From: an uncultured Gemmatimonadales bacterium
GTDB lineage: Bacteria; Gemmatimonadota; Gemmatimonadetes; JACCXV01; JAHWKZ01
DNA length: 64,000 nucleotides
Direction of reading: 5' to 3'
NCBI GenBank assembly: GCA_964619975.1
Contig: CAZUIY010000042.1
Span: 278 to 64,277 of the forward strand
The first letter of the stretch is position 1. Every line of letters starts with the position of its first letter. A program made the position numbers and the translations under genes. This document shows, piece by piece, positions 48,455 to 64,000 of this stretch. The notes below the pieces were generated by a model. That model saw nothing but the letters and a program-made list of their open reading frames with translations. It was not told the DNA's origin and did not search any database.

Positions 48455-48463
48455 TGAATTGCA

Positions 48464-48491: not shown

Positions 48492-48533
48492 CAGTTCATT
48501 CCAATGGATTTTAATTAATTTCAGGAGTTTTCA

Positions 48534-48977: not shown

Positions 48978-48996
48978 GTTCTCCTTGCTGGGCATG

Positions 48997-49031
48997 TGGG
49001 CGCTCTTGTGGTGGGGGCGCCCATTTTTTTT
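48997..49031 (+). terminator. Intrinsic terminator
   Basis: The stem TGGGCGC (48997-49003) pairs with GCGCCCA (49017-49023), followed by a T8 run at 49024-49031. Confidence 0.7.
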
Positions 49032-49041
49032 GGAGCCAATA

Positions 49042-49751: not shown

Positions 49752-50371
49752 CTCCATGGAGCGCATTCTTCGATCTATTGGCAACCGAAGTGCCGGGATG
49801 CCCGCAGGAGGCACAGACAAACGCGCTACGACAGTCTGCCATCACGTTCTGCGAATGCTCCATGGTGTGGGAATACGATCATCCGGATGTGCCCATCGTA
49901 AACGGTACGGCGCGATACCTGTTTGACCCGCCGGATGATGCCGTGGTGCACCTTGTCACTCACGCGGAGTTCAACGAACGCGAACTGGAAGTGAACGTGA
50001 TGGAGCACGATATTCGCATCTGGAACTGGCGCAATAAGACCGGGTTTCCCGAATACGTGCTGGGCGGGCCGCTTGCCTTTACGCTGGCTCCAAAGCCTGA
50101 CATCGATGGCACACTCACACTCGACGTGATCCTGAAGCCATCGCACATCGCCACCGGGATTGAGGACTTCATCTTCAACGAGTACGCGGAACCTATCGTT
50201 CACGGTGCCAAGGCGCGGCTCATGCGAAGCCCCAAGAAGCCATATACCGACATGGGTCTGTCCACTTACTACGAGAGCATGTTCCGCATAGAGACTGCGC
50301 GGGCGGGACTTCGGGCGTCGCGGGATCACTCGCGTGCGCCGGTTGAAACCAGGTTGATGAAGAGGCGATAG
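49748..50371 (+). CDS. Hypothetical virion protein (207 aa)
   Basis: It is coupled within the structural operon. Confidence 0.45.
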   Translation: MTPWSAFFDLLATEVPGCPQEAQTNALRQSAITFCECSMVWEYDHPDVPIVNGTARYLFDPPDDAVVHLVTHAEFNERELEVNVMEHDIRIWNWRNKTGFPEYVLGGPLAFTLAPKPDIDGTLTLDVILKPSHIATGIEDFIFNEYAEPIVHGAKARLMRSPKKPYTDMGLSTYYESMFRIETARAGLRASRDHSRAPVETRLMKRR

Positions 50372-51292
50372 ATGGGGCTTAAATTCACCAATTTCGGGCG
50401 CGCTGTAATAAGCTCAGCGCCTTCCGGGACCACTGGCCTGAGTTTCACCGTGGAAGCCGGGAAGGGCTTGCTGTTTCCGGTGCTGGCTCCGGGGGATTAC
50501 TTCTACGGAATCTTCAAGGACGCATCCGGCAACCATGAGATCGTCAAGGTCGAGACGCGAACAACCGACACGATGACCATAGCAGCGGGCGGACGTGGAC
50601 TGGATGGCACGAATGCCCGTACGTGGGTGGCTGGGGATTACTTTGTCGCCGGACTCACAAACGCCGCGCTTCAGGAATCGCTCACGAATGACAATCTGGT
50701 GGCGCTGGCCGCGCTTTCATCCAGCGCAGACAAGCTTCCGTATTTTTCCAGCGTGGCAGAGGCTGCGCTCACATCGTTCACGCCGTTTGCCCGCCAGTTG
50801 CTCGATGATGCGGACGCTGCAACGATGCGCAATACGCTGGGGGTTACTTCCGCCATAACTGCGGCAATCAATGCCGCAGTTATCCCATCCGGCACGAAAA
50901 TGCTGTTCTGTCAGGCCAATGCGCCTACCGGGTGGGTTAAAGACACGTCTGCCTATAATCACGCGATCCGGATTGTCGGGACCGCTGGCGGAACGACTGG
51001 CGGAACCGTGGCGTTTACCGATGCATTCCGGAACCAGGGCGTATATGGATCGGTGTCAAATACCACTTTGGCGGAATGGCAAATGCCAGTTCACGCCCAT
51101 TCCGTCCCCCTCCAAAGTTGGGCAATGCACGCTGGAAATAGCGGCCCTTGGGATACCCCGCTCTACAACGGGACTTCTTCGGCATGGACAAATTACAGCG
51201 GAGGCGGTGGGGCGCACAACCACGGGTTCACTGGCACGGCAATAAACATGAATGTTTATTACGTCACCATGATCCTTGCGACTAAAAGCTGA
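50372..51292 (+). CDS. Tail fibre protein with a tail-collar-like C-terminal domain
   Basis: GTKMLFCQANAPTGWVKD, MPVHAHSV and GGGGAHNHGFTG resemble the phage tail collar (MdpB-like) domain. Confidence 0.6.
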   Translation: MGLKFTNFGRAVISSAPSGTTGLSFTVEAGKGLLFPVLAPGDYFYGIFKDASGNHEIVKVETRTTDTMTIAAGGRGLDGTNARTWVAGDYFVAGLTNAALQESLTNDNLVALAALSSSADKLPYFSSVAEAALTSFTPFARQLLDDADAATMRNTLGVTSAITAAINAAVIPSGTKMLFCQANAPTGWVKDTSAYNHAIRIVGTAGGTTGGTVAFTDAFRNQGVYGSVSNTTLAEWQMPVHAHSVPLQSWAMHAGNSGPWDTPLYNGTSSAWTNYSGGGGAHNHGFTGTAINMNVYYVTMILATKS

Positions 51293-51636
51293 TGGAAACG
51301 CGAGTTGCTGAATGTCCCCTCGGGGCGAAATGCGAAGAATTGAAGGAAGAGAACGGCAAGCCTGTTCTTTACCGCTGCCCGTGGTACATCAAGATCATGG
51401 GGCGCGATCCGAATACCGGAAAAGAGATTGATAACTGGGGCTGCGCGATTGCATGGATGCCCGCTCTCATGATCAACACGGCAAACGAAGCGCGCCAGGG
51501 GGCGGCTGCAACCGAATCCTTCCGGAATGAAATGGTCAAGCAGGGAGAAACAACTCAAAAGGTCATGCTGCTGGCCGCGCAAATGCGCACCCGGCGCGAT
51601 GACGATCTATTGGAGCAACGCGAAATATGCGAATGA
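51292..51636 (+). CDS. Hypothetical protein (114 aa)
   Basis: It has a coupled start. Confidence 0.45.
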   Translation: METRVAECPLGAKCEELKEENGKPVLYRCPWYIKIMGRDPNTGKEIDNWGCAIAWMPALMINTANEARQGAAATESFRNEMVKQGETTQKVMLLAAQMRTRRDDDLLEQREICE

Positions 51637-52205
51637 CGATCATACGGGATGACAACGTGGTCGGGATTAACGGCCAATTCAGAAAGGTGGACCTGACCGG
51701 ATTCCCTCCGGATGTGCGGGCCGTCCAGTGGAACGAGACAACCGGCCATATCGAATACGACGACGGATCGAATGTCGAGATTGACGGCATATCCGGTTTT
51801 CAGCCGTTCATAGACCAATGGACCCGGAACGCGCCGCCCATGCCACGGCCGCCGACCACGCAGGAACGGGTGGCTGCGGCTCATGCCAGGATAAACGCAT
51901 CGTATGAATCCGCAATACTACAGATTGTAGGCAGTTATCCGGCTCATGAAATTTCGAGTTGGGACAAGCAGGAAACCGAAGCACGAGCATGGGTGGCGGA
52001 CAACACGGCGGCTACGCCCTGGCTGGATGGCGCGGCAACTGCAAGGGGGATCCCCAAGGCTGAACTGGTGGCCAAGGTTATCGCGCAGGCCGATGCGCTC
52101 GCGCCGGTACATGGCGCGCTTTCCGGCAAGCGGCAATACCTCCGCGACCGGATCAACGCGCTCGTTAACCCGACACAGGAACAATTGAACGCAATCCAGT
52201 GGTAG
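51627..52205 (+). CDS. Possible tail-fibre assembly/chaperone-like protein
   Basis: It follows the fibre gene. The C-terminal ISSWDKQETEARAWVAD pattern is typical of DUF4376-like proteins. The call is tentative. Confidence 0.35.
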   Translation: MRMTIIRDDNVVGINGQFRKVDLTGFPPDVRAVQWNETTGHIEYDDGSNVEIDGISGFQPFIDQWTRNAPPMPRPPTTQERVAAAHARINASYESAILQIVGSYPAHEISSWDKQETEARAWVADNTAATPWLDGAATARGIPKAELVAKVIAQADALAPVHGALSGKRQYLRDRINALVNPTQEQLNAIQW

Positions 52206-52234
52206 TCGATTTCAAACAGAAGAGGGAGCAACAA

Positions 52235-52390
52235 ATGGGCAAGTGGTCGGAAGAGAAAGAGCAATACAAGAAACTGGAAGCCGAGGCAGACGAACTCACT
52301 GAGAAAATAAAACGGTCGAATTACACGGCGGCAATATTGCTTGCCGTCGCTGTCGTGGTGATTGCGGGCGGGATTTATCTTCTGCTCTGA
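52235..52390 (+). CDS. Small protein with a C-terminal TM segment (holin/antiholin candidate)
   Basis: The ATG at 52235 follows GAGGGAG. It is 51 aa, with TM segment AAILLAVAVVVIAGGIYLLL. Confidence 0.35.
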   Translation: MGKWSEEKEQYKKLEAEADELTEKIKRSNYTAAILLAVAVVVIAGGIYLLL

Positions 52391-52722
52391 TGAATGAGCC
52401 AAAGGAAGAAAAGAAGGTCTTTCACGTACCCGAATGGGTACGTGAATGGATCGTAAAGATTGTTCCGTGGGCGCTCATGGCGGTAATCGCTGCGTTTGTC
52501 GGACTGTTCATGGACAACATCGGCAACAAGAAGGATATATCCAGAAACCACTGGCGCAATGACCAGCAGGACATACGCCAGGATAGGCTCGAAATCAGGC
52601 AGGATCGGATCGAGGAGGCAATTGATCAGCTGCGTGATACGCAAAATGAATTTCAGGGCCAGGCGTTGCACCGGCTGGATATCCTCATCGAGAAGAACGA
52701 GCGCAGGCGACGGGAACGATGA
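52390..52722 (+). CDS. Single-TM coiled-coil protein (holin or i-spanin candidate)
   Basis: The TM segment reads IVPWALMAVIAAFVGLF, followed by a charged heptad region. Confidence 0.4.
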   Translation: MNEPKEEKKVFHVPEWVREWIVKIVPWALMAVIAAFVGLFMDNIGNKKDISRNHWRNDQQDIRQDRLEIRQDRIEEAIDQLRDTQNEFQGQALHRLDILIEKNERRRRER

Positions 52723-52976
52723 AATCCTTCCTGCCGTTCATGGTGGCCCTTGCGGGCTGCTCCATGCCTCCACATGCCGAGGAAAGGACTGAGCCGCCCG
52801 TGATCGTCCACGAAGAAGCAATTCGCCCTGATCCGCAGCCACGGCAGAGACAAAGGGCTGTTAAAGAGAAATCCGAACCGATGCCAAAGGCAGACGATCT
52901 TTGTCCGCCAAAAAAAGGTGAGACGGATCAGGAGCGGATCATCAGGAAACTAGACTGCCTGCTGGAGCGTGACTGA
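52719..52976 (+). CDS. Small lipoprotein (o-spanin candidate)
   Basis: The lipobox reads VALAGC. It is Pro-rich, 85 aa, with an ATGA overlap upstream. Confidence 0.45.
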   Translation: MKSFLPFMVALAGCSMPPHAEERTEPPVIVHEEAIRPDPQPRQRQRAVKEKSEPMPKADDLCPPKKGETDQERIIRKLDCLLERD

Positions 52977-53518
52977 TGGCGCTTGAATCGCAAAATGTAG
53001 CTGTCCGCACGGCTGTTGCGGCCATTACGGTTACTCTGTCCATGGTAGCCGGTATAGCAGGATTCGAGGGGTTGCGCACGACGGCCTATATTCCTGTTCC
53101 GGGAGACGTTCCAACACTTGGCTATGGCACAACGGAGGGAGTCAAGCTGGGCGATACGATCACGCCGGAGCGCGCCATGCACCGGCTGCGGGATGAAGTG
53201 GATTCCGTTTACGCGCAAGGGGTGCGCCGCTGCGTGCTGGTGCCGCTGACTGATTACGAGTTCGGCGCTTTTCTGTCTCTTGCCTATAACGTAGGAGTGC
53301 CTACTTTCTGCCGCAAGGCAGCAAAGGGAAAGCCGCCCAACCTGATAGACCTCATCAACAGCAAGCAATACAAGGCGGCTTGCCGCCGGATAGAGGCGTT
53401 CGTGTATGGACCGGACGGGCGCGGCGGCAAGAAGATACTCCGGGGTTTGGTCAAGCGCAGGGCGGAAGAGCGGGCGATATGCGAAGGACGACGCGCAAAT
53501 CAGAGCCCAGCCGCGTAA
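52976..53518 (+). CDS. GH24-type lysozyme with a SAR-like N-terminal segment (endolysin)
   Basis: FEGLRTTAYIPVPGDVPTLGYGTT and SLAYNVG blocks are present. The N-terminus VAVRTAVAAITVTLSMVAGIAGF is weakly hydrophobic. Confidence 0.85.
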   Translation: MALESQNVAVRTAVAAITVTLSMVAGIAGFEGLRTTAYIPVPGDVPTLGYGTTEGVKLGDTITPERAMHRLRDEVDSVYAQGVRRCVLVPLTDYEFGAFLSLAYNVGVPTFCRKAAKGKPPNLIDLINSKQYKAACRRIEAFVYGPDGRGGKKILRGLVKRRAEERAICEGRRANQSPAA

Positions 53519-53532
53519 TCGCGCCAACGCGC

Positions 53533-53766
53533 ATGCGCGTTGGGCCGGACCTCGAACTGATATGGCATCAGAACGAAGTGGGAACAGGGGCAGGCGGAGT
53601 ATGGCATGCGATGCAGGCCGACGTTTGCACCGAGGACGGCCAGCAACTTGCAAAGCTTGACGTGTGTAACGGGCGCTATCGCATCTTTGCCTGCGGCCTG
53701 TCCGATTGGGACAGGAGAAGGCTTACGTCCAAGCTTGCCGCTTTTGACTTGGAGGAATACCAGTGA
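53533..53766 (+). CDS. Hypothetical protein (77 aa)
   Basis: It has an internal ATG, and its stop overlaps the next GTG start. Confidence 0.35.
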   Translation: MRVGPDLELIWHQNEVGTGAGGVWHAMQADVCTEDGQQLAKLDVCNGRYRIFACGLSDWDRRRLTSKLAAFDLEEYQ

Positions 53767-55799
53767 CGGGCTTCAGGATTGCCGGTTTTTCTGGCCTTGT
53801 GCCAAGGATGGCGCGGCAACTGCTCGCGCCGAATCAAGCGCAGGTCGCAACCAACTGCAACCTCACTTCCGGCGACTTGCGCTCAAGGAACGGGCCTCGG
53901 CTGGTGTTCAAGCCGGTAGTCGATGGCGATATCCAGTCAATGTTCCGGATGGAAAAGGACGGCCAGGAAAAATGGCTGGCATGGAACCGGGACGTGGACG
54001 TGGCGCGCTCGCCCATTGCAGATAACGTGGACAGGCGATTCTATTACACCGGCGATGGTGAGCCTCGGGTATCGAACTTCGATGTATCGACACAGGGCAG
54101 CGGCCCCTATCCGTCCGGCTGCTACGTGCTGGGCGTATCCCCTCCCATCGTCAAGCCAACTGTCTCTGCTTCGGGCGGGGCCAGCGCCACGACGGTGACA
54201 AGGGTGTACGCCTATACGTTCGTTACCCCGTGGGATGAGGAATCCGCGCCTTCGCCGCCTTCTACCCCAACAAGTGGGAAGATCGACGCCACATGGAGCC
54301 TGTCCGGGCTGGCCGTGCCGCCGGTCAACAGCGGGACAATTTCCGGGGCGCTGCGGAACATGCCGACGGCGGGCTACGTGACAATCACGATGGATACGGT
54401 CTACGGCCTGCGAGAGCATGAGGAAATCCGCTTTGCCGGAATCGTTGGCATGACGGATCTGAATGGCGCATTCCCGATTCACAGTGTGGACACAACCGCC
54501 AAGACGATCACGGTCAACCTCTTCACCGCGCAGATTTACACCTCTGGCGGTACGTGGGAGCGGACCGCGCCCCACAACACGGGCGGGATGACAAAGCGCG
54601 TGTACCGCCTGGCGACTTCGGAATCCGGAGACGAATACCATTATGTCGTCACCCTGTCGGATTCCGTGACAACCTTCAGCGACACGGTGACGGACGCAAA
54701 CCTGGGGGGCGTCATGCCCTCGACAAAGTGGCTTATGCCGCCTGCCGACCTTCGCGGAATCGTCATCCTGCCAAACGGCATAGCGGCTGGGTTCACCAAT
54801 AACAATATCCATTTCTCTGAACCGTTCAAGCCCTACGCATGGCCTGAAGGATATATCCAGGCATACGACCAGGACATTGTTGCCATAGGCGTGACGGGTA
54901 CTACGCTCGTGGGCCTCACGGAAGGCAACCCGTTCACCATCACGGGCGTGGAACCTCTGACGATGGGCGGCGGCATGGAAAAGCTCGCCGTCGCATGGCC
55001 GTGCATGGCAAAGCGTTCGGTGGCCAGTTTCGCCTTTGGCGTGGCTTATGCCGCGCCGCAAGGGTTGGTCATCATCGGCGCCCAGAATGACGTGGTGACC
55101 AAAGACCTGTTCACGCAGAAGGAATGGAGTGACCTGACGCCGACAAACTTCATCGCGGCAACCGCTGACAACCGCTATTACGCGGGCTATTCGGCCAACC
55201 AAAGTTCGATGATGTTTGTGATCGACAAGACCGAAGCCGCGAGTTTCGTCACCATCAACCAGAAAATATCCGCAATCTGGACGGACCCGGCAACGGGCAA
55301 GCTCTATGTCGCCATTGATGGCGACATTTACGAGTGGGAAGGCGATGCGGGTGTGCGGATCCCGTACGAATGGAAAAGCAAGCTTTTCCTGCTGCCCTCG
55401 CCGGTCAACTACGGGGCGGCGAAGATCGATGTGGACTTTGGAATATTCGGAACCGGATCGACGGTGACGAGCCAGGAATCCCTGGATGCAATCATTGCTG
55501 GCAATGAAGCAATCATTACGGCGGGAGAAACAAATGACGCGATGGCCGAACCCATGATTGCGGAATACGAGATAGGCGGGGATGCCATGCAACCGCTGCC
55601 CGGGCTATCTGCCGATACGCTGCAATTCCAGTTATGGGCCGGGGGGACTCTCAAGCACTCGCAGAAGATCACCAGCTCACGCGCTTTCCGCCTGCCGTCA
55701 GGTTACAAGACCGACAACGTGGAAGTAATCCTTGCCGGGAACGTGCGGGTATCGGGCGTCGTGCTGGCTGAAACGATGGATGGACTGAAGCAACTTTAA
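53763..55799 (+). CDS. Large virion structural (tail) protein, 678 aa
   Basis: The call rests on size and position. A 551-aa antisense ORF is judged a shadow. Confidence 0.55.
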   Translation: MTGFRIAGFSGLVPRMARQLLAPNQAQVATNCNLTSGDLRSRNGPRLVFKPVVDGDIQSMFRMEKDGQEKWLAWNRDVDVARSPIADNVDRRFYYTGDGEPRVSNFDVSTQGSGPYPSGCYVLGVSPPIVKPTVSASGGASATTVTRVYAYTFVTPWDEESAPSPPSTPTSGKIDATWSLSGLAVPPVNSGTISGALRNMPTAGYVTITMDTVYGLREHEEIRFAGIVGMTDLNGAFPIHSVDTTAKTITVNLFTAQIYTSGGTWERTAPHNTGGMTKRVYRLATSESGDEYHYVVTLSDSVTTFSDTVTDANLGGVMPSTKWLMPPADLRGIVILPNGIAAGFTNNNIHFSEPFKPYAWPEGYIQAYDQDIVAIGVTGTTLVGLTEGNPFTITGVEPLTMGGGMEKLAVAWPCMAKRSVASFAFGVAYAAPQGLVIIGAQNDVVTKDLFTQKEWSDLTPTNFIAATADNRYYAGYSANQSSMMFVIDKTEAASFVTINQKISAIWTDPATGKLYVAIDGDIYEWEGDAGVRIPYEWKSKLFLLPSPVNYGAAKIDVDFGIFGTGSTVTSQESLDAIIAGNEAIITAGETNDAMAEPMIAEYEIGGDAMQPLPGLSADTLQFQLWAGGTLKHSQKITSSRAFRLPSGYKTDNVEVILAGNVRVSGVVLAETMDGLKQL

Positions 55800-55813
55800 T
55801 ATGGAGACATGGA

Positions 55814-56197
55814 ATGGCTAAATACGCTCACGCCGATGTGCTGGACAACGGCCTGAATCAACTCAAGAACAGCGCAATCAGGATGCTGTTGATCAAGGCA
55901 TACGCTGCGGCGGACAACTACGCAACCGTTATCGGAAACGCAATCTGCACGGTAACGGTTGCCTCCGCTGACTTCACCCTGTCAGGCGCGGACGGGGCGG
56001 CGCGTGTCGTCACAATCGCCGCGAAAAGCGGGACCGCATCCGCTGGCTCCGGGGCGTCGCCTGATCTACACATTGCATTCACCGACAACGTGAGCAAGGT
56101 GCTGCTGGTCACGGATGAAACCACGAATCAGGTCATCACCAGCGGGAACACCGTCAACTTCCCCAGCCTGACATATACCAGCAGTCAACCTGTATAA
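55814..56197 (+). CDS. Hypothetical virion protein (127 aa)
   Basis: It has a GGAGA SD. Confidence 0.5.
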   Translation: MAKYAHADVLDNGLNQLKNSAIRMLLIKAYAAADNYATVIGNAICTVTVASADFTLSGADGAARVVTIAAKSGTASAGSGASPDLHIAFTDNVSKVLLVTDETTNQVITSGNTVNFPSLTYTSSQPV

Positions 56198-56204
56198 GGA
56201 GGAT

Positions 56205-56630
56205 TTGAAAGTGGCGAAAAGATACTACATTTGCGACATCATAGGCGACGGCACGGACTCCATGCCAACCCCCACGACAGGCCCATATCGACCATCTATT
56301 GCAGATCTCGGGGTGTCCTGGGTCGGGAGCATTCCATCCGATCCGGAAACCGGGAGTCCGCTCCATAGCTGGACGCTCGTGTTAGTCAACACGGACAACC
56401 ACACCAGGGTTCTGTCCGCAAAAGGGGTTGATGCTCTGCCCGATTTTCCACTGGACGGAAAAATCAACGCAATTAACAACGTAACCCGGAATGCCATGCT
56501 CGGGAAACTCGGGGCAAGAGGAATTGACACGTCATTTATCGGGAACGCGGATGGATACCGCGAGGTTATCCGTGGCATCGGCAAAAAGCTGGACGTCGCA
56601 TTCGACGAGAATAACTTCGACGTAGCCTGA
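56205..56630 (+). CDS. Hypothetical virion protein (141 aa)
   Basis: It has a GTG start after GGAGGA. Confidence 0.45.
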   Translation: MKVAKRYYICDIIGDGTDSMPTPTTGPYRPSIADLGVSWVGSIPSDPETGSPLHSWTLVLVNTDNHTRVLSAKGVDALPDFPLDGKINAINNVTRNAMLGKLGARGIDTSFIGNADGYREVIRGIGKKLDVAFDENNFDVA

Positions 56631-58285
56631 TGGCACAGTTTGCGTCGGACACGTTCACCGGAACCGACGGCACCGCACTTCAAGCCTATAGCGCGGACTG
56701 GACGCGTCACACCAGCTACTCCGTTAACAGCGTCATCATCGGCAACCGTGCGATATGTCTCGCTAGCGGTGGCAGTGCATACTGGCATTCAGGCTCCCCC
56801 GCGTCTGCGGACTACAGCGTATCGTGTGACATATACGTTGCTGAATATTCGCCGAGTTTTTCGTATGCTGGCGTAATTGGTCGATCCAGCACTGCGGCGA
56901 ATACGTTCTATCACGCCAGGCACGGCGTAGGCGCGGGCTGGCAACTCTATCGTGCCGTTGCTGGCGCTTTTACCCTGCTCGGGAGTGCGGCAGGGCCGCT
57001 CACGGCAGGGAGCACGTACGCCCTCAAGCTCGACATGTCGGGCAGTACTATCAAGATGTTCGTCGATGGTGTGGCTCTCGCGACAGCGAATGATACACAG
57101 ATCACGGCAGCGGGGAAACCGGGAATACGGTTTTCTAACAACAGCGCGATCCTCGGAACTGATGGGCTGCATCTTGACAACTTCAGCGCGGATGAAGCGG
57201 GGGCGGGGGCGCATGATTTAACCATTGCCAATGCCTCTCAAGGCAACGTTGTTGCAAACGGCACTGTAACCCAAACCCATGCGCTGACCATTTCCAGTGC
57301 GGCACAAGGCAATTCCGTGTCAACCGGATCACTGGTTCAGGTTCACGCACTGGCAATCGCCAATACGACACAAGCCAACCTTGTCGATGACGTTGCAATC
57401 GGGGTAGGGGCAGCGTCCGATCTTGATATTGCCAATGCGACGCAAACCAACACCGCTGGCGCTGGTGGGGTAACACAGGAACACATACTTTCCTGGGAAA
57501 GCAGCACGCAGCAGAACGCTGCCAGCACACCGGCAATCAGCCAGACACATGCGCTGACTGTCCCGAATCTCACGCAACCGAATAGCGCATCGGACGGGGC
57601 AATAACACAGTCTCATGCGCTTGTCGGTGCAAACGCAGTGCAAGCGAATCCAGCAAGCCCCGGATCAGTTGCGGTTGGCGGTTCTGGCGACCTGATCGTA
57701 TCGGCCTCGATCCAGGCCAACACGTCAAGTACCGGGGCGATTGAACAGACTCACATTCTGGTCATATCCGCGACGGTACAGGACAACGCCGGCGAGTCTG
57801 TCACCGTCACACAGGTTCATCCCCTCACGGCTGAAGACCTCGCGCAAGGCAATGTTCTCAGCGACGGGGAAGTAATCAGTTTCGGGGATCTGGTAGCAGG
57901 CAACCCGGTACAGCAAAACAGCCTTTCAAACTCGTACGTCACCACGACGCAGACGCTCGCGATTGCCAGCGCGGAACAGGACAATCGCGCAAGCAGCGGG
58001 GCAATCATCCCGGGGGAGATATTCGAGGAATCGGTATCCGCTTCTTCATCTGCGGCGACCCTTGGCGCAATCAAGAAGCCGGGGATTCCAGGCGACACGG
58101 CGAAGTGGCTGCGGACCATGCTTGAAATCATCATCGGGCGCAGGAACAACAAGATCACGGTCCCAAAACGGCAAACCCTGACGTTCTCATCACCGCCGAC
58201 AAAGGCGGAATGCGAGGCGCTTTACAGCTACGTCAACGCCGTGCGGGAATCCCATGAACAGATAGTAAACAGACTGGATTCATGA
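56630..58285 (+). CDS. Tail fibre/spike-like protein: N-terminal ConA/LamG-like domain plus about twelve ~22-aa tandem repeats
   Basis: The LamG-like block reads YALKLDMSGSTIKMFVDGV. The repeat consensus is roughly H-A-L-x-I-x-x-A-x-Q-x-N-x(6-8)-T-Q-x, spanning aa 195 to about 460. Confidence 0.6.
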   Translation: MAQFASDTFTGTDGTALQAYSADWTRHTSYSVNSVIIGNRAICLASGGSAYWHSGSPASADYSVSCDIYVAEYSPSFSYAGVIGRSSTAANTFYHARHGVGAGWQLYRAVAGAFTLLGSAAGPLTAGSTYALKLDMSGSTIKMFVDGVALATANDTQITAAGKPGIRFSNNSAILGTDGLHLDNFSADEAGAGAHDLTIANASQGNVVANGTVTQTHALTISSAAQGNSVSTGSLVQVHALAIANTTQANLVDDVAIGVGAASDLDIANATQTNTAGAGGVTQEHILSWESSTQQNAASTPAISQTHALTVPNLTQPNSASDGAITQSHALVGANAVQANPASPGSVAVGGSGDLIVSASIQANTSSTGAIEQTHILVISATVQDNAGESVTVTQVHPLTAEDLAQGNVLSDGEVISFGDLVAGNPVQQNSLSNSYVTTTQTLAIASAEQDNRASSGAIIPGEIFEESVSASSSAATLGAIKKPGIPGDTAKWLRTMLEIIIGRRNNKITVPKRQTLTFSSPPTKAECEALYSYVNAVRESHEQIVNRLDS

Positions 58286-58917
58286 CAAACAGATACCTGT
58301 ACAAACTCCTTGATGCAAATATCGGATACCCGCTTACGCACGAGTTGGCGCTCAGTATCATGCGGGTGGCGTCCATGCTTGAGCCGCTTGTGGAGCCTGA
58401 AAACATCGGGCAAATCATCCCGGCAGAGCATGAGGGATTCGTTTTTGCCGTGGAACGCATGGATGCCATAGAAGGCGAGATGCGGCCCCTGCATCTGGCG
58501 CACTGGGGGGAAACGGAAGAACACCGGCATGGCCTGCCATTCAATCCGGATTACACCACGTTCATCCGGTATGAGGCGGCGGGGCGATACGTCCTTTTCA
58601 CGATACGGGAGAAGGGGCGGCTCGTGGGCAACTGTGCCATGTATCTTGATAGAAGCACACACACGCAAACGCTGATTGCCACCGAGGATACGCTGTACCT
58701 GTTGCCACAAGCCCGGAGGGGAACGGTCGCAAAAAGGTTTATCGAATACTGCGAGGCGGCATTGAAAAGCCTGGGCGTGAAGGAAATAAGCGTAAGCGTG
58801 AAGACGGTCAACCGGGCCGGACTGTTCTTCCAGAGGATGGGTTATCGCCATGTGGAAAACGGATTAACGAAAGTATTGGAGGAAAAAAATGTGCGCACCG
58901 AAAGCTCCGAAGCCTGA
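58282..58917 (+). CDS. GNAT-family N-acetyltransferase
   Basis: The acetyl-CoA motif-A-like block reads LLPQARRGTVAKRFIEYCEAALKSLGVKEISVS. The C-terminal part reads FFQRMGY. Confidence 0.7.
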   Translation: MTNRYLYKLLDANIGYPLTHELALSIMRVASMLEPLVEPENIGQIIPAEHEGFVFAVERMDAIEGEMRPLHLAHWGETEEHRHGLPFNPDYTTFIRYEAAGRYVLFTIREKGRLVGNCAMYLDRSTHTQTLIATEDTLYLLPQARRGTVAKRFIEYCEAALKSLGVKEISVSVKTVNRAGLFFQRMGYRHVENGLTKVLEEKNVRTESSEA

Positions 58918-59713
58918 TCCCGCGATTGGTCAGGCGGCATTATCCAATGCCGAACTTGCAAAGGAACAAACTGCTGTAGCTCGGGAACAGTTGGCCTGGG
59001 AGAAGGAGAGGGCCAACCGGCAGGACCCGCTGGTCGAGAAGATCGTCAACCAGCAAATTGCATCTGGTGACGAGAATGCCGCTCGCGCTGCGGAACAGTG
59101 GAACATCTACCAGAACCTTTTCCGTCCTGTCGAGGAAAGGATGGTATCCGACGCGATGGGCTTTGACTCCGAAGAACGCAAAGAGCGCATGGCGGCGGAA
59201 GCTGCATTGGACGTAACCCGGGGATATGCCGCTGCACAGGACCAGAATGCGCGCACCCTGGGAGCGATGGGCATAAACCCCAACTCCGGGCGGTTCGCGG
59301 GGCTTGCCAATGAGACGGCATTGATGCAGGCAAAGGACACGGCGGGTGCCATGAACCGGGCAAGGCGCGGCACAGAAATGCAGGGCATAGCCTTGAGGAC
59401 TGGGGCTGCGCAATTCGGGCGGAACATGCCCAACACGGGGATCGCGGCGGACAGCCTGGTACTCAACTCGGGTAATTCCGCCGTAGGAAACCTTGCCACA
59501 AACTCGCAAATGCACAACGCCAACAATGCGGCGGCTGCGCAATGGTTCGGGGGCGCAATGCAGGGCAACCAGTCGGCCGGGGGGTTGCTTAACAACCTGT
59601 ACGGAAATCAACTGGCGGGATACCAGACCCAGGCGGGGATCACGAGTGGGGCCATGCAGGGAATTGGAAGCCTTGTCGGTGGGCTTGGTACTGCCGGAAT
59701 ACTGGCTTTCTGA
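58889..59713 (+). CDS. Gly/Ala/Asn/Gln-rich putative internal virion (ejection) protein
   Basis: It has a strong SD, is 274 aa, and has a low-complexity C-terminus ending in a hydrophobic segment. Confidence 0.4.
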   Translation: MCAPKAPKPDPAIGQAALSNAELAKEQTAVAREQLAWEKERANRQDPLVEKIVNQQIASGDENAARAAEQWNIYQNLFRPVEERMVSDAMGFDSEERKERMAAEAALDVTRGYAAAQDQNARTLGAMGINPNSGRFAGLANETALMQAKDTAGAMNRARRGTEMQGIALRTGAAQFGRNMPNTGIAADSLVLNSGNSAVGNLATNSQMHNANNAAAAQWFGGAMQGNQSAGGLLNNLYGNQLAGYQTQAGITSGAMQGIGSLVGGLGTAGILAF

Positions 59714-60402
59714 TGCGCGTACTCGCATTCTCCGGCGGCAAGGATTCCATGGCATGCCTTCATCTCTGCAAGCGCAGCATCGACTGTGCAATCTATGTTG
59801 ACACCGGCAAATCCTATCCAGAAACGCAAATGATGGTGAAGTACGCGGAAACAATCGTGCCGTTCGTAATCGTTCATAGCGATCAAGAAGAACAAAACAG
59901 AGTCAACGGACTGCCATCCGATGTTGTTCCAATCGATTACACAGCATTGGGTCAAGTGATAAGCGGCGCAAAGCCTGTCATGATCCAGAGTTATCTGGAT
60001 TGCCACTTCCAAAACATCAGTTATCCCCTGTTTACCAAGGCCAAAGAACTCGGGGCGACTCATATTCTATACGGACAAAGGAGCAGTGATTCGCATCAGG
60101 CACCAGCCAGGAATGGCGACATAATCGACGAGATTGTGAGACTGCATCCGGTCGAAGGCTGGTCGGATCAGGACGTGCTTGACTACCTGCAAACCGTGAT
60201 GGACGTGCCAGAGCATTACTACCTCGGGCATTCATCAATGGACTGTTACGACTGCACGGCATTCAGGAATGAAACGCAGGATCGGATGGAATACACGAAG
60301 GAAAGATATCCGAATTTCCACAGAAAATATCAGGAACGAATGGACATGATCAGGCAGGCGCTTGAGATGAGCGGATACTTGGAGAAAAGACATGGCACTT
60401 AA
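59713..60402 (+). CDS. PAPS-reductase-family PP-loop ATP pyrophosphatase
   Basis: The N-terminal PP-loop reads LAFSGGKDSMACLHL. It is 229 aa. Confidence 0.78.
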   Translation: MRVLAFSGGKDSMACLHLCKRSIDCAIYVDTGKSYPETQMMVKYAETIVPFVIVHSDQEEQNRVNGLPSDVVPIDYTALGQVISGAKPVMIQSYLDCHFQNISYPLFTKAKELGATHILYGQRSSDSHQAPARNGDIIDEIVRLHPVEGWSDQDVLDYLQTVMDVPEHYYLGHSSMDCYDCTAFRNETQDRMEYTKERYPNFHRKYQERMDMIRQALEMSGYLEKRHGT

Positions 60403-62278
60403 CGCGGTTGGCGGTCTCGCGCAGGGATTGGCGCAAGGAATCGACATGGGCATGCGCTGGCACGGACTGAACCAGAGTATCGGGCTTCAAAAACAGCGGC
60501 AGGAACGGCTTGAGAAACGAGATGAGCGCGACGCCGAAATCCATGAAATGAAGAAAGATCAGTTTGCGTCGGAGAAGGAAATCAGGGATCGCAGGAACAA
60601 CGCGCTCAATGAAATTGCTCAATATACTCAGTCGATCATGGGCGGAGGCCCGCAGCCACAACAGCAGCCGAATATCAACGTGGCCGGACCCATTCCCGCT
60701 GGAGGGATTGGTGGCGCAACACAAATGACACCCGACAGCGGGAGTCTTGCGCCTGCCGCGTCACAAGCGGCACAGGCCCAGGCTCCACAAGCGCAGGAAC
60801 AATCCATTCCGCCTGGAAAGGTACTGGAACGCGGCATGGTAACGGGCATGTACTCCCCGAAAATGCTGACCGATATTGCCAGCATATGGGCCAAGCACGG
60901 CTTGCAGGAAGAGGGCATCAAATACATGAACCAGGCATATGAGGCCGAGAAGCGCGGCGGGGTTCGCGCATCAATGGCACTCATGCAGAACAACCCAGCC
61001 GCGGCTGCCAAAGCGTTGCAGGAAGGCGGAGTGGAGCTCGAAGGCGTGCCGGTCAAGGTCAATGATGATCCGAATGACTTTCGCTGGAAGCTCAACATCG
61101 CGGGACAGGGCGAGACAACGGCGGACGTGCGGCAATGGCTACGCTCCACCATGGACCCGGAAGAATTCTTCAGGGCTGAAGACAGAAGGATCAAGGACGA
61201 GCGGGAAGCGGCCATGGACGAGCGCAAGCAATCGTTCGCGGAACAGAAAGGCCGAGCGGAACTCGGTCTTGATGCGGCAAAGACGCAGGCGCAGATCGGA
61301 TACCTGAGAAGCCGCAGCCAGCTTGCAGAGGCCAACGCGGACAAGGCTGACCGCTGGGAGCCGGGGGCGCTGCGGCCAACCCGATCAAGCGAATCCCAGA
61401 TCAATACCGCGCTGACACGCCGGGAAAAGGCGTTCGACCGGGTGAGCATGGTAAAGGACGAATTTGGCGGCAAGCCCGAGGTCGACCCCATGAGGCGGCA
61501 AGTGCTGGACAGCGCAGCCAACCAGTATCAGGCATTCCTTGAGGATTTACGCGGGGAAGAACTGGACGCGCGGGATCACCACAAGTTTACTGACGTGATG
61601 GTGAGTTTTCCCGTGAACGGTACGCCGCAGCAGATAGCGAAATGGGAAGAGTCGCAACTGTTCCCTCGCTTCGGGCTGAAGAGAAAAGCAAAGGCGGCAA
61701 CCAAGGAAGATACTCCGCGCCAAGTCACTGCACCAGCTGGCGGACTCGCGCCTGCTTCAACACGCGCACCGGCTCCAAGAACAGGAGCGCTCTCATCCCT
61801 TGACCGTGACCGTGCAAGCGCGGCACTGAACAAGGAAATGGAAGGCGTACAGCGTGCGCTGAAAACACCTAACCTCAGCACCGAACAGCGCAAGACACTC
61901 TCATTGCAGGCGCAGGAAATCGCCAAGCGGCGGGATGCGCTGAAGAGAAAGAGAGGCCAATCATCTGACCCAGAATCAGAGCCTGTCCCTGATTACGGAT
62001 TACGACGAGATGGCAGCAAAAAAGGTACTGGATGGCTTGGCATCCAAAAAACCAAATCTGGTAGCGACATGACGGAATACACCGTTGGTTTGGAGATAAA
62101 CGGAAATGAGGTGGATGTTCCTACACTGGTGCCAACTTTGAATCAAAAAGAAATTGACTATCTGAAAACAGAGCCAGACCTGCGAGAAAGGAGCCAAATC
62201 AACGATTCAATCATAAGAAAAGCAAAAGAACATGCAGAGAAACGAATGCGAGAAGGAAAAAGCGTTTTCGCAGATTAA
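60392..62278 (+). CDS. Coiled-coil putative internal virion (ejection) protein, 628 aa
   Basis: It is charged and helical, with a Q/A/P-rich linker. It lies immediately before the giant ORF. Confidence 0.45.
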   Translation: MALNAVGGLAQGLAQGIDMGMRWHGLNQSIGLQKQRQERLEKRDERDAEIHEMKKDQFASEKEIRDRRNNALNEIAQYTQSIMGGGPQPQQQPNINVAGPIPAGGIGGATQMTPDSGSLAPAASQAAQAQAPQAQEQSIPPGKVLERGMVTGMYSPKMLTDIASIWAKHGLQEEGIKYMNQAYEAEKRGGVRASMALMQNNPAAAAKALQEGGVELEGVPVKVNDDPNDFRWKLNIAGQGETTADVRQWLRSTMDPEEFFRAEDRRIKDEREAAMDERKQSFAEQKGRAELGLDAAKTQAQIGYLRSRSQLAEANADKADRWEPGALRPTRSSESQINTALTRREKAFDRVSMVKDEFGGKPEVDPMRRQVLDSAANQYQAFLEDLRGEELDARDHHKFTDVMVSFPVNGTPQQIAKWEESQLFPRFGLKRKAKAATKEDTPRQVTAPAGGLAPASTRAPAPRTGALSSLDRDRASAALNKEMEGVQRALKTPNLSTEQRKTLSLQAQEIAKRRDALKRKRGQSSDPESEPVPDYGLRRDGSKKGTGWLGIQKTKSGSDMTEYTVGLEINGNEVDVPTLVPTLNQKEIDYLKTEPDLRERSQINDSIIRKAKEHAEKRMREGKSVFAD

Positions 62279-62287: not shown

Positions 62288-64000
62288 ATGGATGAATTAA
62301 CCCTCGAAGAAGATGCTGGCGAACTTGTCGCCCCTCGTCCAAGACGCCAGAGGATGGACGCGCCCATGCCGCGCTCTCGGCCGCGCATGATCGAACTGGA
62401 CGACGACGCTGAAATGCGGCTGCGAGAGATAGCGCAGTCGATGCAGTCCTTCCAGCAGACTGCTCCTGCGGAAACCGCGCAGCCCGAGAAACCTCTCGGC
62501 CTCATGGGAACGATCCGGGAGGGCGCGAAAGGAACATTACGGGCGTTGGGCGCTACCGTGGACACGGCGCAAGGAGATGCGCAGGAAGTGGTGCGCGCCG
62601 CGCAGGATCAGGCAGACGCACCCAAAGACCCTGACCTTGAACGCTTCTATGCGCACATCGAGGAACGCAAGGCAGCGTTGGGAGAAGACCCGTCGCTTTG
62701 GGAAGGCATCAAGGCCGTAGGCGGGGCGGCAATAGATAACCCCCGCGGATTCGGCCTGATGATCGCGGAACAGTTGCCGAACTCGGGCGCAGCGCTGGGA
62801 GCGGCGGGGGCTGGCGCTTTGGCCGGATCATTCGCCGGACCCGTTGGCTCTGCTATCGGTGGATTGGCGGGGCTGGCGGCTGCGAACATCGGCTTGGAAA
62901 CCGGTCACAAGGCGCTGGAAGCGGCCGCCGATGGAGACTTCACGCCGAAAGAACAAAGCCGGGTGCGGCGCGAGGGATTAATCAAGGGCGGCGTCATTAC
63001 CGGGGTGGATGCGGCAACGTTGGGCGTGACCAAGTTCATCACCAACACCAGCCGCCGTGCCGTGGAACGCGCCACGATGAAGACGCTGGCCGATAACGGC
63101 GTGGACGTGACCAATGCGGCAGCACGTCGGGCTGCAATGGAAACACCAGAGATTGCCGAAGCCGTCACAGCAGCGCAAAGCATGGCACGTTCGGGAGCGG
63201 AAAGGCTTGGCAACCGGATAGCGCAGACCGGCGGGGCGATAGCGCTTGAAACCATCGGGGAGGGCGCGGGGGAATATCTCGGGGAACTAGCGGCGACCGG
63301 GCGCGCAAATGCGGTAGACGCCGTAATCGAGGGTTTCGCCGGATTCGGTACCAGCATCGGGGAAATAGCAACAGTCGGAGCGTTGAACCGGCGCGGATTG
63401 AACCGATTGCTGGACAGCCAGGAAGAAGCGCAGACACAGGCCGAAAAACAGACGCAGGACACCGGGGTGGAGCATGAGGCCATGCCATCTCCTACCGAGC
63501 CGGAAAAGTTCGTGGCCGTGCCGAAAGCGCGCTCTGTCTCCGGAATAGAGTTAACACGCGACGAGGAAGGAAACCTCAAGCCGGTCACGCCCGGCTCCAC
63601 GCAGACGGAGTTCAACCTTGCCAACCGGCCGGGTTTTCAGCAGGACGCTGAAACACGCAGGAGGGCGCGGGAAGAGGAACGCACGCGGGAGGAAGCGTAC
63701 AGGAAGAACCCCATAGTCGTGTCAAAGGACATGCCGCGCTCCATTGCTGGCCGTCCCGCAGCTGATCTCACGAATGAAGCGCTGGAATACACGGCGAAGA
63801 ACGGCGGCGCACGCGCCCGCCAGATCGCCATGGACGAGATTGCACGACGCAAGGCGCAAGGCACTCCTGTAGTCACGCCAGAGAAACCGGCGGAAAAGGT
63901 AAAAAGAATCATTGCTACCGGCGCGGAGAAGGCTCAGGAGGACGCCAGGAAGAATTCGATACTTCCATCCGTCCCGACTGCTCCGATTCAACCAGCGACT
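62288..64000 (+). CDS. 5' part (571 codons, open at the window edge) of a giant virion/polyvalent-type protein; not in the supplied ORF table
   Basis: I translated it by hand from the ATG at 62288 and found no stop through 64000, where the last codon ends. It has a Gly/Ala-rich hydrophobic segment (GAALGAAGAGALAGSFAGPVGSAIGGLAGLAAANIG). The antisense ORFs listed here are shadows. Confidence 0.7.
   Translation, partial: MDELTLEEDAGELVAPRPRRQRMDAPMPRSRPRMIELDDDAEMRLREIAQSMQSFQQTAPAETAQPEKPLGLMGTIREGAKGTLRALGATVDTAQGDAQEVVRAAQDQADAPKDPDLERFYAHIEERKAALGEDPSLWEGIKAVGGAAIDNPRGFGLMIAEQLPNSGAALGAAGAGALAGSFAGPVGSAIGGLAGLAAANIGLETGHKALEAAADGDFTPKEQSRVRREGLIKGGVITGVDAATLGVTKFITNTSRRAVERATMKTLADNGVDVTNAAARRAAMETPEIAEAVTAAQSMARSGAERLGNRIAQTGGAIALETIGEGAGEYLGELAATGRANAVDAVIEGFAGFGTSIGEIATVGALNRRGLNRLLDSQEEAQTQAEKQTQDTGVEHEAMPSPTEPEKFVAVPKARSVSGIELTRDEEGNLKPVTPGSTQTEFNLANRPGFQQDAETRRRAREEERTREEAYRKNPIVVSKDMPRSIAGRPAADLTNEALEYTAKNGGARARQIAMDEIARRKAQGTPVVTPEKPAEKVKRIIATGAEKAQEDARKNSILPSVPTAPIQPAT

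What the first reader, a model, noticed from the sequence alone, without database searches (positions are those of the whole stretch)
62288..64000. Untabulated open ORF runs off the right edge and may be the N-terminus of the giant gene whose C-terminus enters at the left edge
**Seen.**
- The ATG at 62288 lies 10 nt after the 628-aa gene.
- The frame stays open to nt 64000, where the last codon ends exactly.
- It is missing from the ORF table only because it has no stop.
- The left-edge ORF is open from nt 2.
- Joining 64000 directly to 1 is out of frame and gives a stop at 67-69.

**Inference.**
- If the replicon is circular and only slightly larger than the window, both fragments belong to one very large gene.
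- The missing segment would then have length 3n+2.
- That would put the conjugation module strictly inside a phage genome, between the last virion gene and the early genes.
Basis: inference. Interest (0 to 1): 0.6.

Follow-up and report, generated by a model that had tools for sequence, protein, structure and literature searches.

The report
Giant injected-protein gene closing circular phage-plasmid
The two open reading frames at the window's edges are one 2,444-residue gene for a giant multi-enzyme phage protein on a 65.5-kb circular element, which places a complete conjugation machine inside a complete phage genome, a combination that a 2025 review says had not yet been found.

Summary
The window is bases 278-64,277 of a 65,685-bp contig whose ends repeat 141 bp exactly, so the replicon is a 65,544-bp circle. 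The unseen segment is 1,544 nt (3n+2, as predicted). Reading from the ATG at 62288 gives one ORF of 2,444 codons that ends at window 4078. An independent assembly carries the same gene uninterrupted, 100% identical across the junction.

The protein is a phage-type large polyvalent protein. A conserved N-terminal helical domain and a conserved 960-residue C-terminal LPD38 module frame exchangeable cassettes: DdrB-ParB, an HEXXXH metallopeptidase and an H-Y-D ADP-ribosyltransferase. It is the last gene of the virion operon and is followed by a strong hairpin. I infer that it is packed in the capsid and ejected into the host; this is not shown.

Directly downstream lie the partition genes, relaxase, coupling protein and a full Trb secretion system. 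The giant-partition-relaxase-coupling-protein order recurs in five further lineages (giant proteins 57-80% identical; contigs 65-72 kb), so this looks like a conserved family of candidate conjugative phage-plasmids.

The gene itself is a new member of a known kind. Its setting is the unusual part.

The parts
62288..64000 (+). 5' part of the giant gene (aa 1-571): disordered N-terminus, conserved N-terminal helical domain and linker.
   Evidence: Orthologues align from residue 1-7 onwards, which supports this start.
62480..63397 (+). Core of the conserved N-terminal domain (aa ~65-370). It is an all-alpha long-helix bundle with Gly/Ala-zipper hydrophobic helices at aa 152-212 and 345-363. No Pfam family covers it.
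   Evidence: It sits at the N-termini of 259 cluster representatives, mostly proteins of 2,000-5,700 aa. AlphaFold model pLDDT 83.7. Hydrophobicity scan. No Pfam hit. No PDB analogue.
1..4078 (+). 3' part of the giant gene (third base of codon 1086, aa 1087-2444, stop at 4076-4078).
2..643 (+). Metallopeptidase-like cassette (giant aa ~1075-1300; its first ~12 residues lie outside the window). Motif HESLGH = HEXXXH at nt 248-265 (aa 1169-1174), with downstream AAEEVLAE.
   Evidence: The motif is kept in 64 of 66 homologous segments. It appears in the consensus of alignments A1 and A2. Iyer et al. 2017 describe an HEXXXH variant of polyvalent-protein MPTases. PHROG 873 hit, E 1e-7. No Pfam hit.
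683..1171 (+). ART-PolyVal ADP-ribosyltransferase cassette (aa 1314-1476) with predicted triad H1324, Y1350, D1442.
   Evidence: Pfam PF18760, E 2.9e-31. H is kept in 52/53 and D in 52/53 homologues, with an aromatic residue at 1350. The cassette is precisely absent from the close relatives P0004, P0005 and P0008.
1190..4075 (+). Conserved C-terminal chassis (aa 1483-2444). It includes the one strong transmembrane-like helix (aa 2109-2127, nt 3068-3124), LPD38 (aa 2136-2331, nt 3149-3736) and a basic coiled-coil tail.
   Evidence: Pfam PF18857, E 1.5e-41. PHROGs 14770, 616 and 10691. 385 phage records by tblastn. Present in every relative. Model pLDDT 82. BFVD TM up to 0.77, 76 hits. No PDB analogue.
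4083..4161 (.). Long, nearly perfect hairpin between the giant gene and the convergent partition operon; probably a bidirectional terminator.
   Evidence: Fold of 4070-4215: -54.1 kcal/mol, z = -5.75, 0 of 200 shuffles as stable.
60392..62278 (+). Upstream 628-aa gene of the virion-side operon, of unknown function. It precedes the giant gene by 9 nt.
   Evidence: The same neighbour, 0-10 nt upstream, occurs in the relatives.
38486..62278 (+). Packaging, virion and lysis module: TerS, serine invertase, TerL, MTase, portal, major head protein, structural proteins, tail fibre, endolysin, internal virion protein, acetyltransferase, PAPS reductase.
   Evidence: PHROG scans.
4213..5755 (-). Convergent plasmid-maintenance operon: 139-aa ORF at the position of the relatives' TraM-activator-like gene (4213-4632), ParA/CbiA (4642-5367) and DUF5338 (5393-5755).
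   Evidence: Called genes with Pfam marks on L010 and the relatives. ParA hit.
7258..12086 (+). DNA-transfer operon: TraJ/NikA-like protein, MOBP-type relaxase carrying LPD7, TraG-type coupling protein, TraF S26 peptidase, SLT transglycosylase.
12154..21991 (-). Complete P-type (Trb) mating-pair-formation set: TrbI, H, G, F, L, J, E, D, C, B.
   Evidence: TrbJ equivalog scores above its cutoff.

Best explanation
**What it is (shown).** The two edge fragments are one gene on a 65,544-bp circular element. It encodes a 2,444-residue phage-type large polyvalent protein and is the last gene of the late (virion) operon.

**How it is built (shown).** Two modules are invariant in close relatives. One is an N-terminal helical domain with glycine-zipper helices. 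The other is a roughly 960-residue C-terminal LPD38 module with one membrane-type helix. Between them sit exchangeable enzyme cassettes. Here these are a DdrB-type ParB domain, an HEXXXH metallopeptidase and an H-Y-D ADP-ribosyltransferase. Close relatives carry RadC instead, or lack one or more of these cassettes.

**How it most likely works (inferred).**
- The protein is made late and packed inside the capsid.
- It is ejected with the DNA at infection.
- The conserved ends serve packaging and passage through, or formation of, the envelope-spanning conduit.
- The peptidase cuts the chain into working pieces.
- The ParB-like and ADP-ribosylating cassettes act on host nucleotides, DNA or proteins to blunt defence and help the incoming genome establish itself.

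**Setting (shown).** The element carries a full podophage-like virion set, partition genes and a complete relaxase/T4CP/Trb conjugation system. The giant gene marks the phage-to-plasmid boundary.
For: **Continuity**
- 141-bp terminal repeat, and a single ORF on the rotated circle.
- The identical protein is encoded on an independent contig that is 100% identical across the junction.
- Full-length orthologues of 2,250-2,530 aa occur in other samples.

**Identity**
- Pfam ddrB-ParB, ART-PolyVal and LPD38.
- HEXXXH kept in 64/66 homologous segments; ART H and D each kept in 52/53.
- Iyer et al. [quoted passage not shown]

**Virion link**
- The gene starts 9 nt after the virion-side genes on the same strand, and a hairpin follows it.
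- The C-terminal module is homologous to giant proteins of 385 phage records, whose host spread mirrors that of this portal type.
- It has the same fold as the C-terminal chunks of giant phage proteins in BFVD, TM up to 0.77.
- The LPD38-bearing gp47 of phage phi24B is abundant in the virion proteome but invisible by cryo-EM, and its authors propose it is an ejection protein.
- P1 DdrB, homologous to aa 598-829, is reported to be packed into the phage head.

**Cassette exchange**
- BLASTP map against 32 relatives.
Against: - No experiment or proteome exists for this element. Packaging, ejection, self-cleavage and both enzymatic activities are inferred.
- Neither conserved end has a solved structural analogue, so their role as conduit or packaging signal is a guess.
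- The peptidase cassette has no Pfam match.
- No canonical Shine-Dalgarno sequence precedes the ATG.
- The gene borders the conjugation and partition genes, and relatives carry RadC, which the 2017 survey found only in conjugative-type polyvalent proteins. Delivery through the secretion system is therefore not excluded.
Confidence: 0.8

Rival explanations
1. The giant protein belongs functionally to the conjugation module. It would be an escort protein exported through the Trb secretion system with the transferred strand, like RP4 TraC primase or ArdC-type polyvalent proteins, and not a capsid-packed protein.
For: - The gene lies directly beside the partition and transfer genes.
- Relatives carry RadC cassettes, which the 2017 survey classed as conjugative-type only.
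- The element's relaxase carries LPD7, a domain associated with polyvalent proteins.
Against: - Its hallmark domains, DdrB-ParB and LPD38, are reported only from phage-type proteins.
- It is co-oriented with and 9 nt behind the virion genes, and is separated from the convergent plasmid genes by a strong hairpin.
- The same chassis occurs in phages and prophages with no conjugation genes nearby: a Comamonas phage-plasmid, a Nitrosovibrio prophage, short-tailed Stx phages and integrating prophages.
- An LPD38-bearing giant protein of phage phi24B is present in virions.
Confidence: 0.07
2. Dual use. The protein is packed into capsids and is also a substrate of the element's own secretion system, so the same anti-defence toolkit accompanies the DNA by either route.
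For: - Both delivery machines are encoded on one replicon, with the gene at their boundary.
- In relatives, phage-type and conjugative-type cassettes are mixed within one protein.
- The C-terminal tail is basic.
Against: - The basic tail is conserved in non-conjugative phage homologues as well.
- I found nothing in the protein that is specific to the conjugative family.
- No secretion signal can be recognised with these tools.
Confidence: 0.1
3. Assembly artefact. The circle, or the phage-conjugation adjacency, is a chimera created by a repeat, and the long ORF is an accident of the false join.
For: - The contig comes from a heterogeneous metagenome bin with contigs of 44-72% GC.
- Circularity rests on a k-mer-length (141 bp) overlap.
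- The assembler's break point falls at a cassette boundary, near aa 995.
Against: - An independent assembly crosses the junction with 100% identity, and spans virion genes through the giant gene into the Trb genes.
- The same gene order recurs in other samples and lineages at 57-80% protein identity.
- Composition is uniform across modules: GC 52-59%, tetranucleotide r 0.75-0.89.
Confidence: 0.01

Closest known systems
Phage-type large polyvalent proteins (Iyer, Burroughs, Anand, de Souza & Aravind 2017, J Bacteriol, PMC5512222)
   Same: - Many unrelated enzyme domains in one giant polypeptide.
- Encoded among late genes of a phage with a portal-terminase system.
- Contains DdrB-ParB, LPD38, an HEXXXH-type metallopeptidase and a HYD-type ART.
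- Cassette content differs between close relatives.
   Different: - It sits in an element that also has a complete conjugation system.
- In sister lineages the same chassis carries RadC, which that survey found only in conjugative-type proteins.
- The roughly 300-residue N-terminal domain and residues 1483-2135 have no Pfam model.
gp47 of Stx phage phi24B (2,811 aa; LPD5, LPD1, LPD38 and a metallopeptidase domain; bioRxiv 10.64898/2026.04.10.717836) and the related giant ORFs of short-tailed Stx, Vibrio, Ralstonia and Burkholderia podophages
   Same: - Both carry LPD38. The window's C-terminal ~940 residues match giant ORFs of short-tailed Stx phage records at 32% identity (E 2e-102); phi24B itself was not compared.
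- A portal of the same family occurs in the same groups of phages.
- phi24B gp47 is abundant in the virion proteome but not seen by cryo-EM, and its authors propose it is an ejection protein.
   Different: - Different N-terminal and middle cassettes.
- No proteomic data exist for this element.
- Those phages integrate and have no relaxase or secretion system.
Phage P1 DdrB (darA operon, Dar anti-restriction system)
   Same: The DdrB-type ParB domain and the region after it are homologous (aa 598-829, 35% identity). DdrB is processed and packed into the P1 head.
   Different: DdrB is a separate protein of roughly 1,000 residues in an operon with DarA and Hdf. Here the domain is one cassette of a 2,444-residue protein, and no Dar partners were identified.
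Comamonas thiooxydans CSUSB4 plasmid unnamed2 (NZ_CP083940.1, 57.7 kb, typed non-mobilizable)
   Same: A circular element with terminase, tail and fibre genes. Its 3,832-aa LPD38 giant gene is the last virion-side gene and is followed directly by replication and ParA-type genes.
   Different: - No relaxase, coupling protein or secretion system.
- The giant protein is only 33-36% identical, over its C-terminal half.
Phage-plasmids as currently catalogued (Pfeifer et al. 2021, PMC7969092; review PMC12282955)
   Same: A complete phage gene set plus partition genes on a circular extrachromosomal-type replicon.
   Different: [quoted passage not shown] - The only 'conjugative phage-plasmid' I found in the literature is E. 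coli p1002-1, described as a fusion of a conjugative plasmid with a phage-plasmid (bioRxiv 10.1101/2025.03.14.643293).

Membership tests
Phage-type large polyvalent proteins | Two or more unrelated effector or enzymatic domains in one polypeptide | tested here: met
   ddrB-ParB, ART-PolyVal and LPD38 by Pfam, plus a conserved HEXXXH peptidase motif.
Phage-type large polyvalent proteins | Encoded among late or virion genes of a phage with a portal-terminase system | tested here: met
   Same strand as, and 9 nt after, the virion-side genes. TerS, TerL, portal and major head protein lie upstream.
Phage-type large polyvalent proteins | Domains reported only from the phage type (DdrB-ParB, LPD38) | tested here: met
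   Both are present above the Pfam cutoffs. The phage-only assignment is from PMC5512222.
Phage-type large polyvalent proteins | Domain content varies between orthologues | tested here: met
   Cassettes B, C and D are present, absent or replaced by RadC among relatives whose N- and C-terminal modules are 57-80% identical.
Phage-type large polyvalent proteins | Packed in the capsid and delivered into the host with the DNA | not testable with these tools
   Supported only by analogy with phi24B gp47 and P1 DdrB.
LPD38-chassis giant proteins of 933W/phi24B-like and related podophages | Homologous C-terminal module of ~950 residues ending in LPD38 | tested here: met
   PHROG 14770, E 8e-242. tblastn 32% identity, E 2e-102. 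BFVD TM 0.77, E 1e-52.
LPD38-chassis giant proteins of 933W/phi24B-like and related podophages | Co-occurrence with the same portal family | tested here: met
   Portal is PHROG 156. The portal hits (411 phage records) and the giant C-terminus hits (385 records) fall in the same groups: Vibrio, Stx phages, Escherichia, Ralstonia, Burkholderia.
P1 Dar system (DdrB) | DdrB-type ParB domain | tested here: met
   Pfam E 4.6e-28. tblastn to P1 ddrB 35% identity, E 5e-22.
P1 Dar system (DdrB) | Operon partners DarA, Hdf, DarB, Ulx | not tested
   None appeared in the PHROG or Pfam scans of neighbouring genes, but I made no dedicated search. I do not file the gene as a Dar system.
Phage-plasmid | Complete packaging, virion and lysis gene set | tested here: met
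   TerS, TerL, portal, major head protein, structural proteins, fibre, endolysin and internal virion protein.
Phage-plasmid | Plasmid partition and replication functions on a circular replicon, with no integration module | tested here: inconclusive
   Circular, with a ParA/CbiA plus DUF5338 operon. A replication initiator is only suggested, by a 359-aa HTH_36 protein. No tyrosine integrase was seen among the scanned ORFs, only a 195-aa serine invertase. Not every small ORF was scanned.
Self-transmissible (conjugative) plasmid, MOBP / P-type Trb | Relaxase, coupling protein, VirB4-type ATPase and a full mating-pair-formation set | tested here: met
   Relaxase with TraI_middle, TraG-type T4CP, TraF, SLT, and TrbB, C, D, E, J, L, F, G, H, I.
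Self-transmissible (conjugative) plasmid, MOBP / P-type Trb | Recognisable oriT | tested here: inconclusive
   The IncP-type nick motif YATCCTGY occurs at chance frequency: 7 observed against 7.3 expected.
Self-transmissible (conjugative) plasmid, MOBP / P-type Trb | Demonstrated transfer | not testable with these tools
   No culture or mating data exist.

The most novel reading that the evidence does not exclude
This is a conserved lineage of elements that really do spread both as virions and by conjugation. MAG labels place it partly in Nitrosomonadaceae. Its giant polyvalent protein would be a shared establishment and anti-defence escort, delivered with the DNA by either route: packed in the capsid, and also exported by the element's own Trb system. 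That would explain why phage-only (DdrB-ParB, LPD38) and conjugative-only (RadC) cassettes are fused on one chassis at the phage-plasmid boundary. The weaker claim alone, that the family is functional by both routes, I put at about 0.45.
Probability: 0.1. Interest if true: 0.9.

Novelty: new variant of a known kind. Interest (0 to 1): 0.68.

Why it matters
- **It settles the architecture.** Closing the circle through one intact gene shows that a full conjugation system sits inside a single phage replicon. It is not on a neighbouring element or a chimeric contig.
- **It recurs.** The same gene order appears in at least five further diverged lineages. [quoted passage not shown] It also gives concrete candidates for testing the trade-off between viral and conjugative transfer.
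- **It is easily missed.** A related IMG/VR record is labelled 'provirus' and ends just before the relaxase on one side. On the other side it ends about 2.4 kb past RecT. It holds no Trb gene.
- **The protein itself is informative.** It documents a two-ended chassis with swappable enzyme cassettes. Both conserved ends give confident models but have no solved analogue and, apart from LPD38, no Pfam family.

Tried and rejected
**Searches that found nothing useful**
- Search for an IncP-type oriT nick motif: chance level.
- Promoter and terminator consensus scan of 1-8,000: no more sites than in shuffles.
- Sequence search of the whole protein against PDB chains: nothing.
- Foldseek against PDB for both models: no hit below E 0.1. 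I therefore make no claim of likeness to T7- or P22-type ejection proteins or to pore-forming toxins.
- Pfam at E up to 5 on the N-terminal, peptidase and C-terminal sub-segments: nothing beyond the three known domains.
- NCBIfam on the giant protein and its unknown neighbours: nothing.
- tRNA and Rfam scans of the window: none.

**Searches that missed their target**
- The metagenome scan with the relaxase found only a differently arranged Trb/relaxase contig (L009, relaxase 67% identical). It did not find the parent scaffold of the IMG/VR relative.

**Ideas rejected**
- I first read HESLGH as a canonical HEXXH zincin. It is HEXXXH, a variant already described for polyvalent proteins.
- A conjugation-specific feature in the giant protein: none found. 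Both chassis modules also occur in non-conjugative phages.

- The first alignment for structure prediction was too large.
Full report
**1. The observation**

The ORF table with open ends shows a frame open from ATG 62288 to the last base of the window (571 codons). It also shows a frame open from nt 2 to the stop at 4076-4078. The 628-aa gene ends with TAA at 62276-62278, so nine bases separate it from the ATG. Base 1 read in frame 1 meets TGA at 67-69, so a direct join of the window's ends is indeed out of frame. All stated facts are correct. Open frames of this length are far beyond chance.

**2. Closing the gap**

- The window is positions 278-64,277 of contig C42 of the held assembly.
- The contig is 65,685 bp, contains no N, and its first and last 141 bases are identical. 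This is the signature of a circular molecule linearised by a k=141 assembler.
- Removing one repeat copy gives 65,544 bp.
- Translating the rotated circle from 62288 gives one ORF of 2,444 codons that ends at window 4078.

This does not rest on circularisation alone. The identical 2,444-aa protein is on record on a separately assembled 40,685-bp Logan contig of run SRR10083322. The 25,780 bases fetched from that contig match the circle at 100% identity without gaps, from window 53,843 through the junction to 14,078. The assembler's break point lies at about residue 995, at a boundary between cassettes.

**3. What the gene encodes**

Pfam finds three domains above their cutoffs:
- ddrB-ParB, aa 590-712. 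This domain lies in the 1,544 nt outside the window.
- ART-PolyVal, aa 1314-1476.
- LPD38, aa 2136-2331.

BLASTP against 32 relatives divides the protein into modules:

| Module | Residues | Content | Distribution in relatives |
|---|---|---|---|
| A | 1-570 | N-terminal helical domain | kept in the close relatives |
| B | ~580-1000 | DdrB-ParB plus extension | present or absent |
| C | ~1075-1300 | metallopeptidase-like | present or absent |
| D | 1315-1482 | ART | deleted exactly in P0004, P0005, P0008 |
| E | 1483-2444 | C-terminal chassis with LPD38 | kept in all |

In several relatives, including the IMG/VR relative L003 (2,393 aa), a RadC/JAB cassette replaces C and D.

Module details:
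- **Module C** carries HESLGH. This is HEXXXH, not the canonical HEXXH. It is kept in 64 of 66 homologous segments and corresponds to a variant metallopeptidase clade that Iyer et al. describe in polyvalent proteins.
- **The ART** keeps H1324 (52/53), an aromatic residue at 1350 (Y here) and D1442 (52/53). This matches the H-Y-D configuration given for this clade.
- **Module A's core** (aa ~65-370) is found at the N-termini of 259 cluster representatives, most of them proteins of 2,000-5,700 residues. It has no Pfam model. It folds with confidence (pLDDT 83.7) into a bundle of long helices that includes Gly/Ala-rich hydrophobic hairpins.
- **Module E** also folds with confidence (pLDDT 82, pTM 0.74).
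- Neither model has a solved analogue in PDB.
- Module E superposes on the last chunks of giant phage proteins in BFVD, with TM up to 0.77 and 76 hits at E <= 1e-3, down to 12-30% identity.

**4. Why I read it as a capsid-packed, ejected protein**

Shown here:
- The gene is co-oriented with and 9 nt behind the virion-side genes. Relatives have the same spacing of 0-10 nt.
- It is followed by a very stable hairpin (z = -5.75). Beyond the hairpin the genes converge on the other strand.
- Its C-terminal module hits PHROGs made of giant phage proteins and 385 phage records: short-tailed Stx phages, Vibrio, Ralstonia and Burkholderia phages.
- The portal of this element hits the same groups of phages.
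- Residues 598-829 are homologous to P1 DdrB.

From the literature:
- A 2026 preprint finds the LPD38-bearing gp47 of phi24B abundant in the virion proteome but absent from the cryo-EM map, and proposes it is an ejection protein.

Inferred, not shown:
- packing and ejection of this protein;
- self-processing by the HEXXXH peptidase;
- action of the ParB-like and ART cassettes on host targets;
- a packaging or conduit role for the conserved ends.

**5. The setting**

The rest of the circle was annotated with Pfam, PHROGs and NCBIfam and with the called genes on L010. Going clockwise from the giant gene:
- a 139-aa ORF at the position of the relatives' TraM-activator-like gene, ParA and DUF5338 (minus strand);
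- TraJ/NikA-like protein, MOBP relaxase with LPD7, TraG-type coupling protein, TraF peptidase and SLT (plus strand);
- TrbI, H, G, F, L, J, E, D, C, B (minus strand);
- HNH, HTH, SSB, RecT and YqaJ exonuclease;
- a probable replication region;
- a DUF3560-methyltransferase;
- TerS, a serine invertase, TerL, a methyltransferase, portal, major head protein, structural proteins, fibre, endolysin, internal virion protein, acetyltransferase, PAPS reductase and the 628-aa gene.

GC content (52-59%) and tetranucleotide usage (r 0.75-0.89) are uniform across modules. Other contigs of the same bin range from 44 to 72% GC.

**6. Recurrence**

Close homologues of the giant protein lie on contigs of 65-72 kb from other samples.

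| Lineage | Record | Contig size | Context downstream of the giant gene |
|---|---|---|---|
| P0004 | ERZ28615080 | 66,939 bp | ParA, NikA, relaxase(LPD7), T4CP, TraF, SLT |
| P0019 | 'Devosia' MAG GCA_039938275.1; SRR26386581 | 65,381 and 65,268 bp | the SRR26386581 contig runs on through ParA, NikA and relaxase into T4CP (locus ends there); the MAG contig ends after ParA/DUF5338 |
| P0011 | 16 contigs, two shown | 66.8-68.3 kb (two shown) | same order, continuing into TrbI |
| P0008 | JGI 3300049580 | 70,148 bp | same order (through SLT) |
| P0016 | ERZ27321041 | 72,089 bp | same order into TraF; T4CP split in two |
| P0014 | SRR11844047 | 67,374 bp | same order as far as the partition genes, then the contig ends |

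- Relative to the window, relaxase and T4CP are 58-68% identical and virion proteins 65-80%. This fits an old association better than a recent fusion.
- A differently arranged Trb/relaxase contig has a somewhat closer T4CP (L009, 75%), so module exchange with ordinary plasmids is also possible.
- More distant LPD38 phages (33% identity) are integrating prophages without conjugation genes near the giant gene.
- So is a prophage of Nitrosovibrio sp. Nv4.
- A Comamonas phage-plasmid has the giant gene followed directly by Rep and ParA.
- MAG labels of close relatives are Nitrosomonas, Nitrosospira and Devosia. These are binning results, not host proof.

**7. Known or new**

- The gene is a new member of a described class, phage-type polyvalent proteins.
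- I found one fusion plasmid of E. coli that is called a conjugative phage-plasmid.
- I also found a passing mention of such hybrids in a single-cell study.
- I found no description of this family. Text search cannot prove absence.
- I therefore rate the whole as a new variant of a known kind. The interest lies mainly in the context that this finding secures.

**8. Limits**

- No read-level data could be examined.
- No function is demonstrated.
- The host is unknown.
- oriT was not identified.
- The replication initiator is only suggested.

Noticed in passing
G001 = IMGVR_UViG_3300027691_000041 (L003, L006-L008): This 51,003-bp IMG/VR record is labelled 'provirus' and is collinear with the window. 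One end stops in the TraJ-like gene just before the relaxase, and the other stops about 2.4 kb past RecT. It therefore holds no relaxase, T4CP or Trb gene, a stretch that measures about 14.5 kb in the window. The conjugation module was probably trimmed as 'host', which would hide such elements from virus catalogues.
   Followed up: partly
window 39279-39866 (+): A 195-aa serine invertase/resolvase gene sits between TerS and TerL. It is conserved at the same place in the IMG/VR relative (67% identity). Its role is open: multimer resolution, or an invertible segment.
   Followed up: no
window 62480-63397 (+), giant aa ~65-370: An N-terminal domain of about 300 residues with no Pfam family heads 259 cluster representatives of giant proteins (2,000-5,700 aa). 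It is a confident all-helical model with glycine-zipper helices and no PDB analogue.
   Followed up: partly
L018 22168-22530, L014 22840-23193, L022 23318-23650: In several relatives a phage NinX-like gene (PF10765) sits inside the transfer operon, between the NikA-like gene and the relaxase. The phage and conjugation modules are interleaved, not merely adjacent.
   Followed up: no
L022 25262-27474: In the 72-kb relative (ERZ27321041) the coupling-protein gene is called as two ORFs of 195 and 546 aa. This could be a frameshift, a pseudogene or an assembly error. Conjugation may be decaying in that lineage.
   Followed up: no
window 58282-60402 (+): An acetyltransferase and a PAPS-reductase-like gene are embedded among the virion-side genes just upstream of the giant gene. 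Most relatives conserve them, and the Comamonas phage-plasmid has a PAPS-reductase-like homologue at 30% identity. Their function in a virion operon is unexplained.
   Followed up: no
window 35205-37247 (-) and 41076-41714 (+): There are two DNA methyltransferase genes. One is a 680-aa DUF3560-methyltransferase fusion. The other is a 212-aa enzyme wedged between TerL and portal. Both are probably self-protection against restriction.
   Followed up: no
genome G000 (whole bin): The 'genome' that holds this contig is a mixed bin. Its large contigs range from 44 to 72% GC with unrelated tetranucleotide usage, and earlier notes describe phages of different host phyla in it. It gives no host information for this element.
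   Followed up: partly
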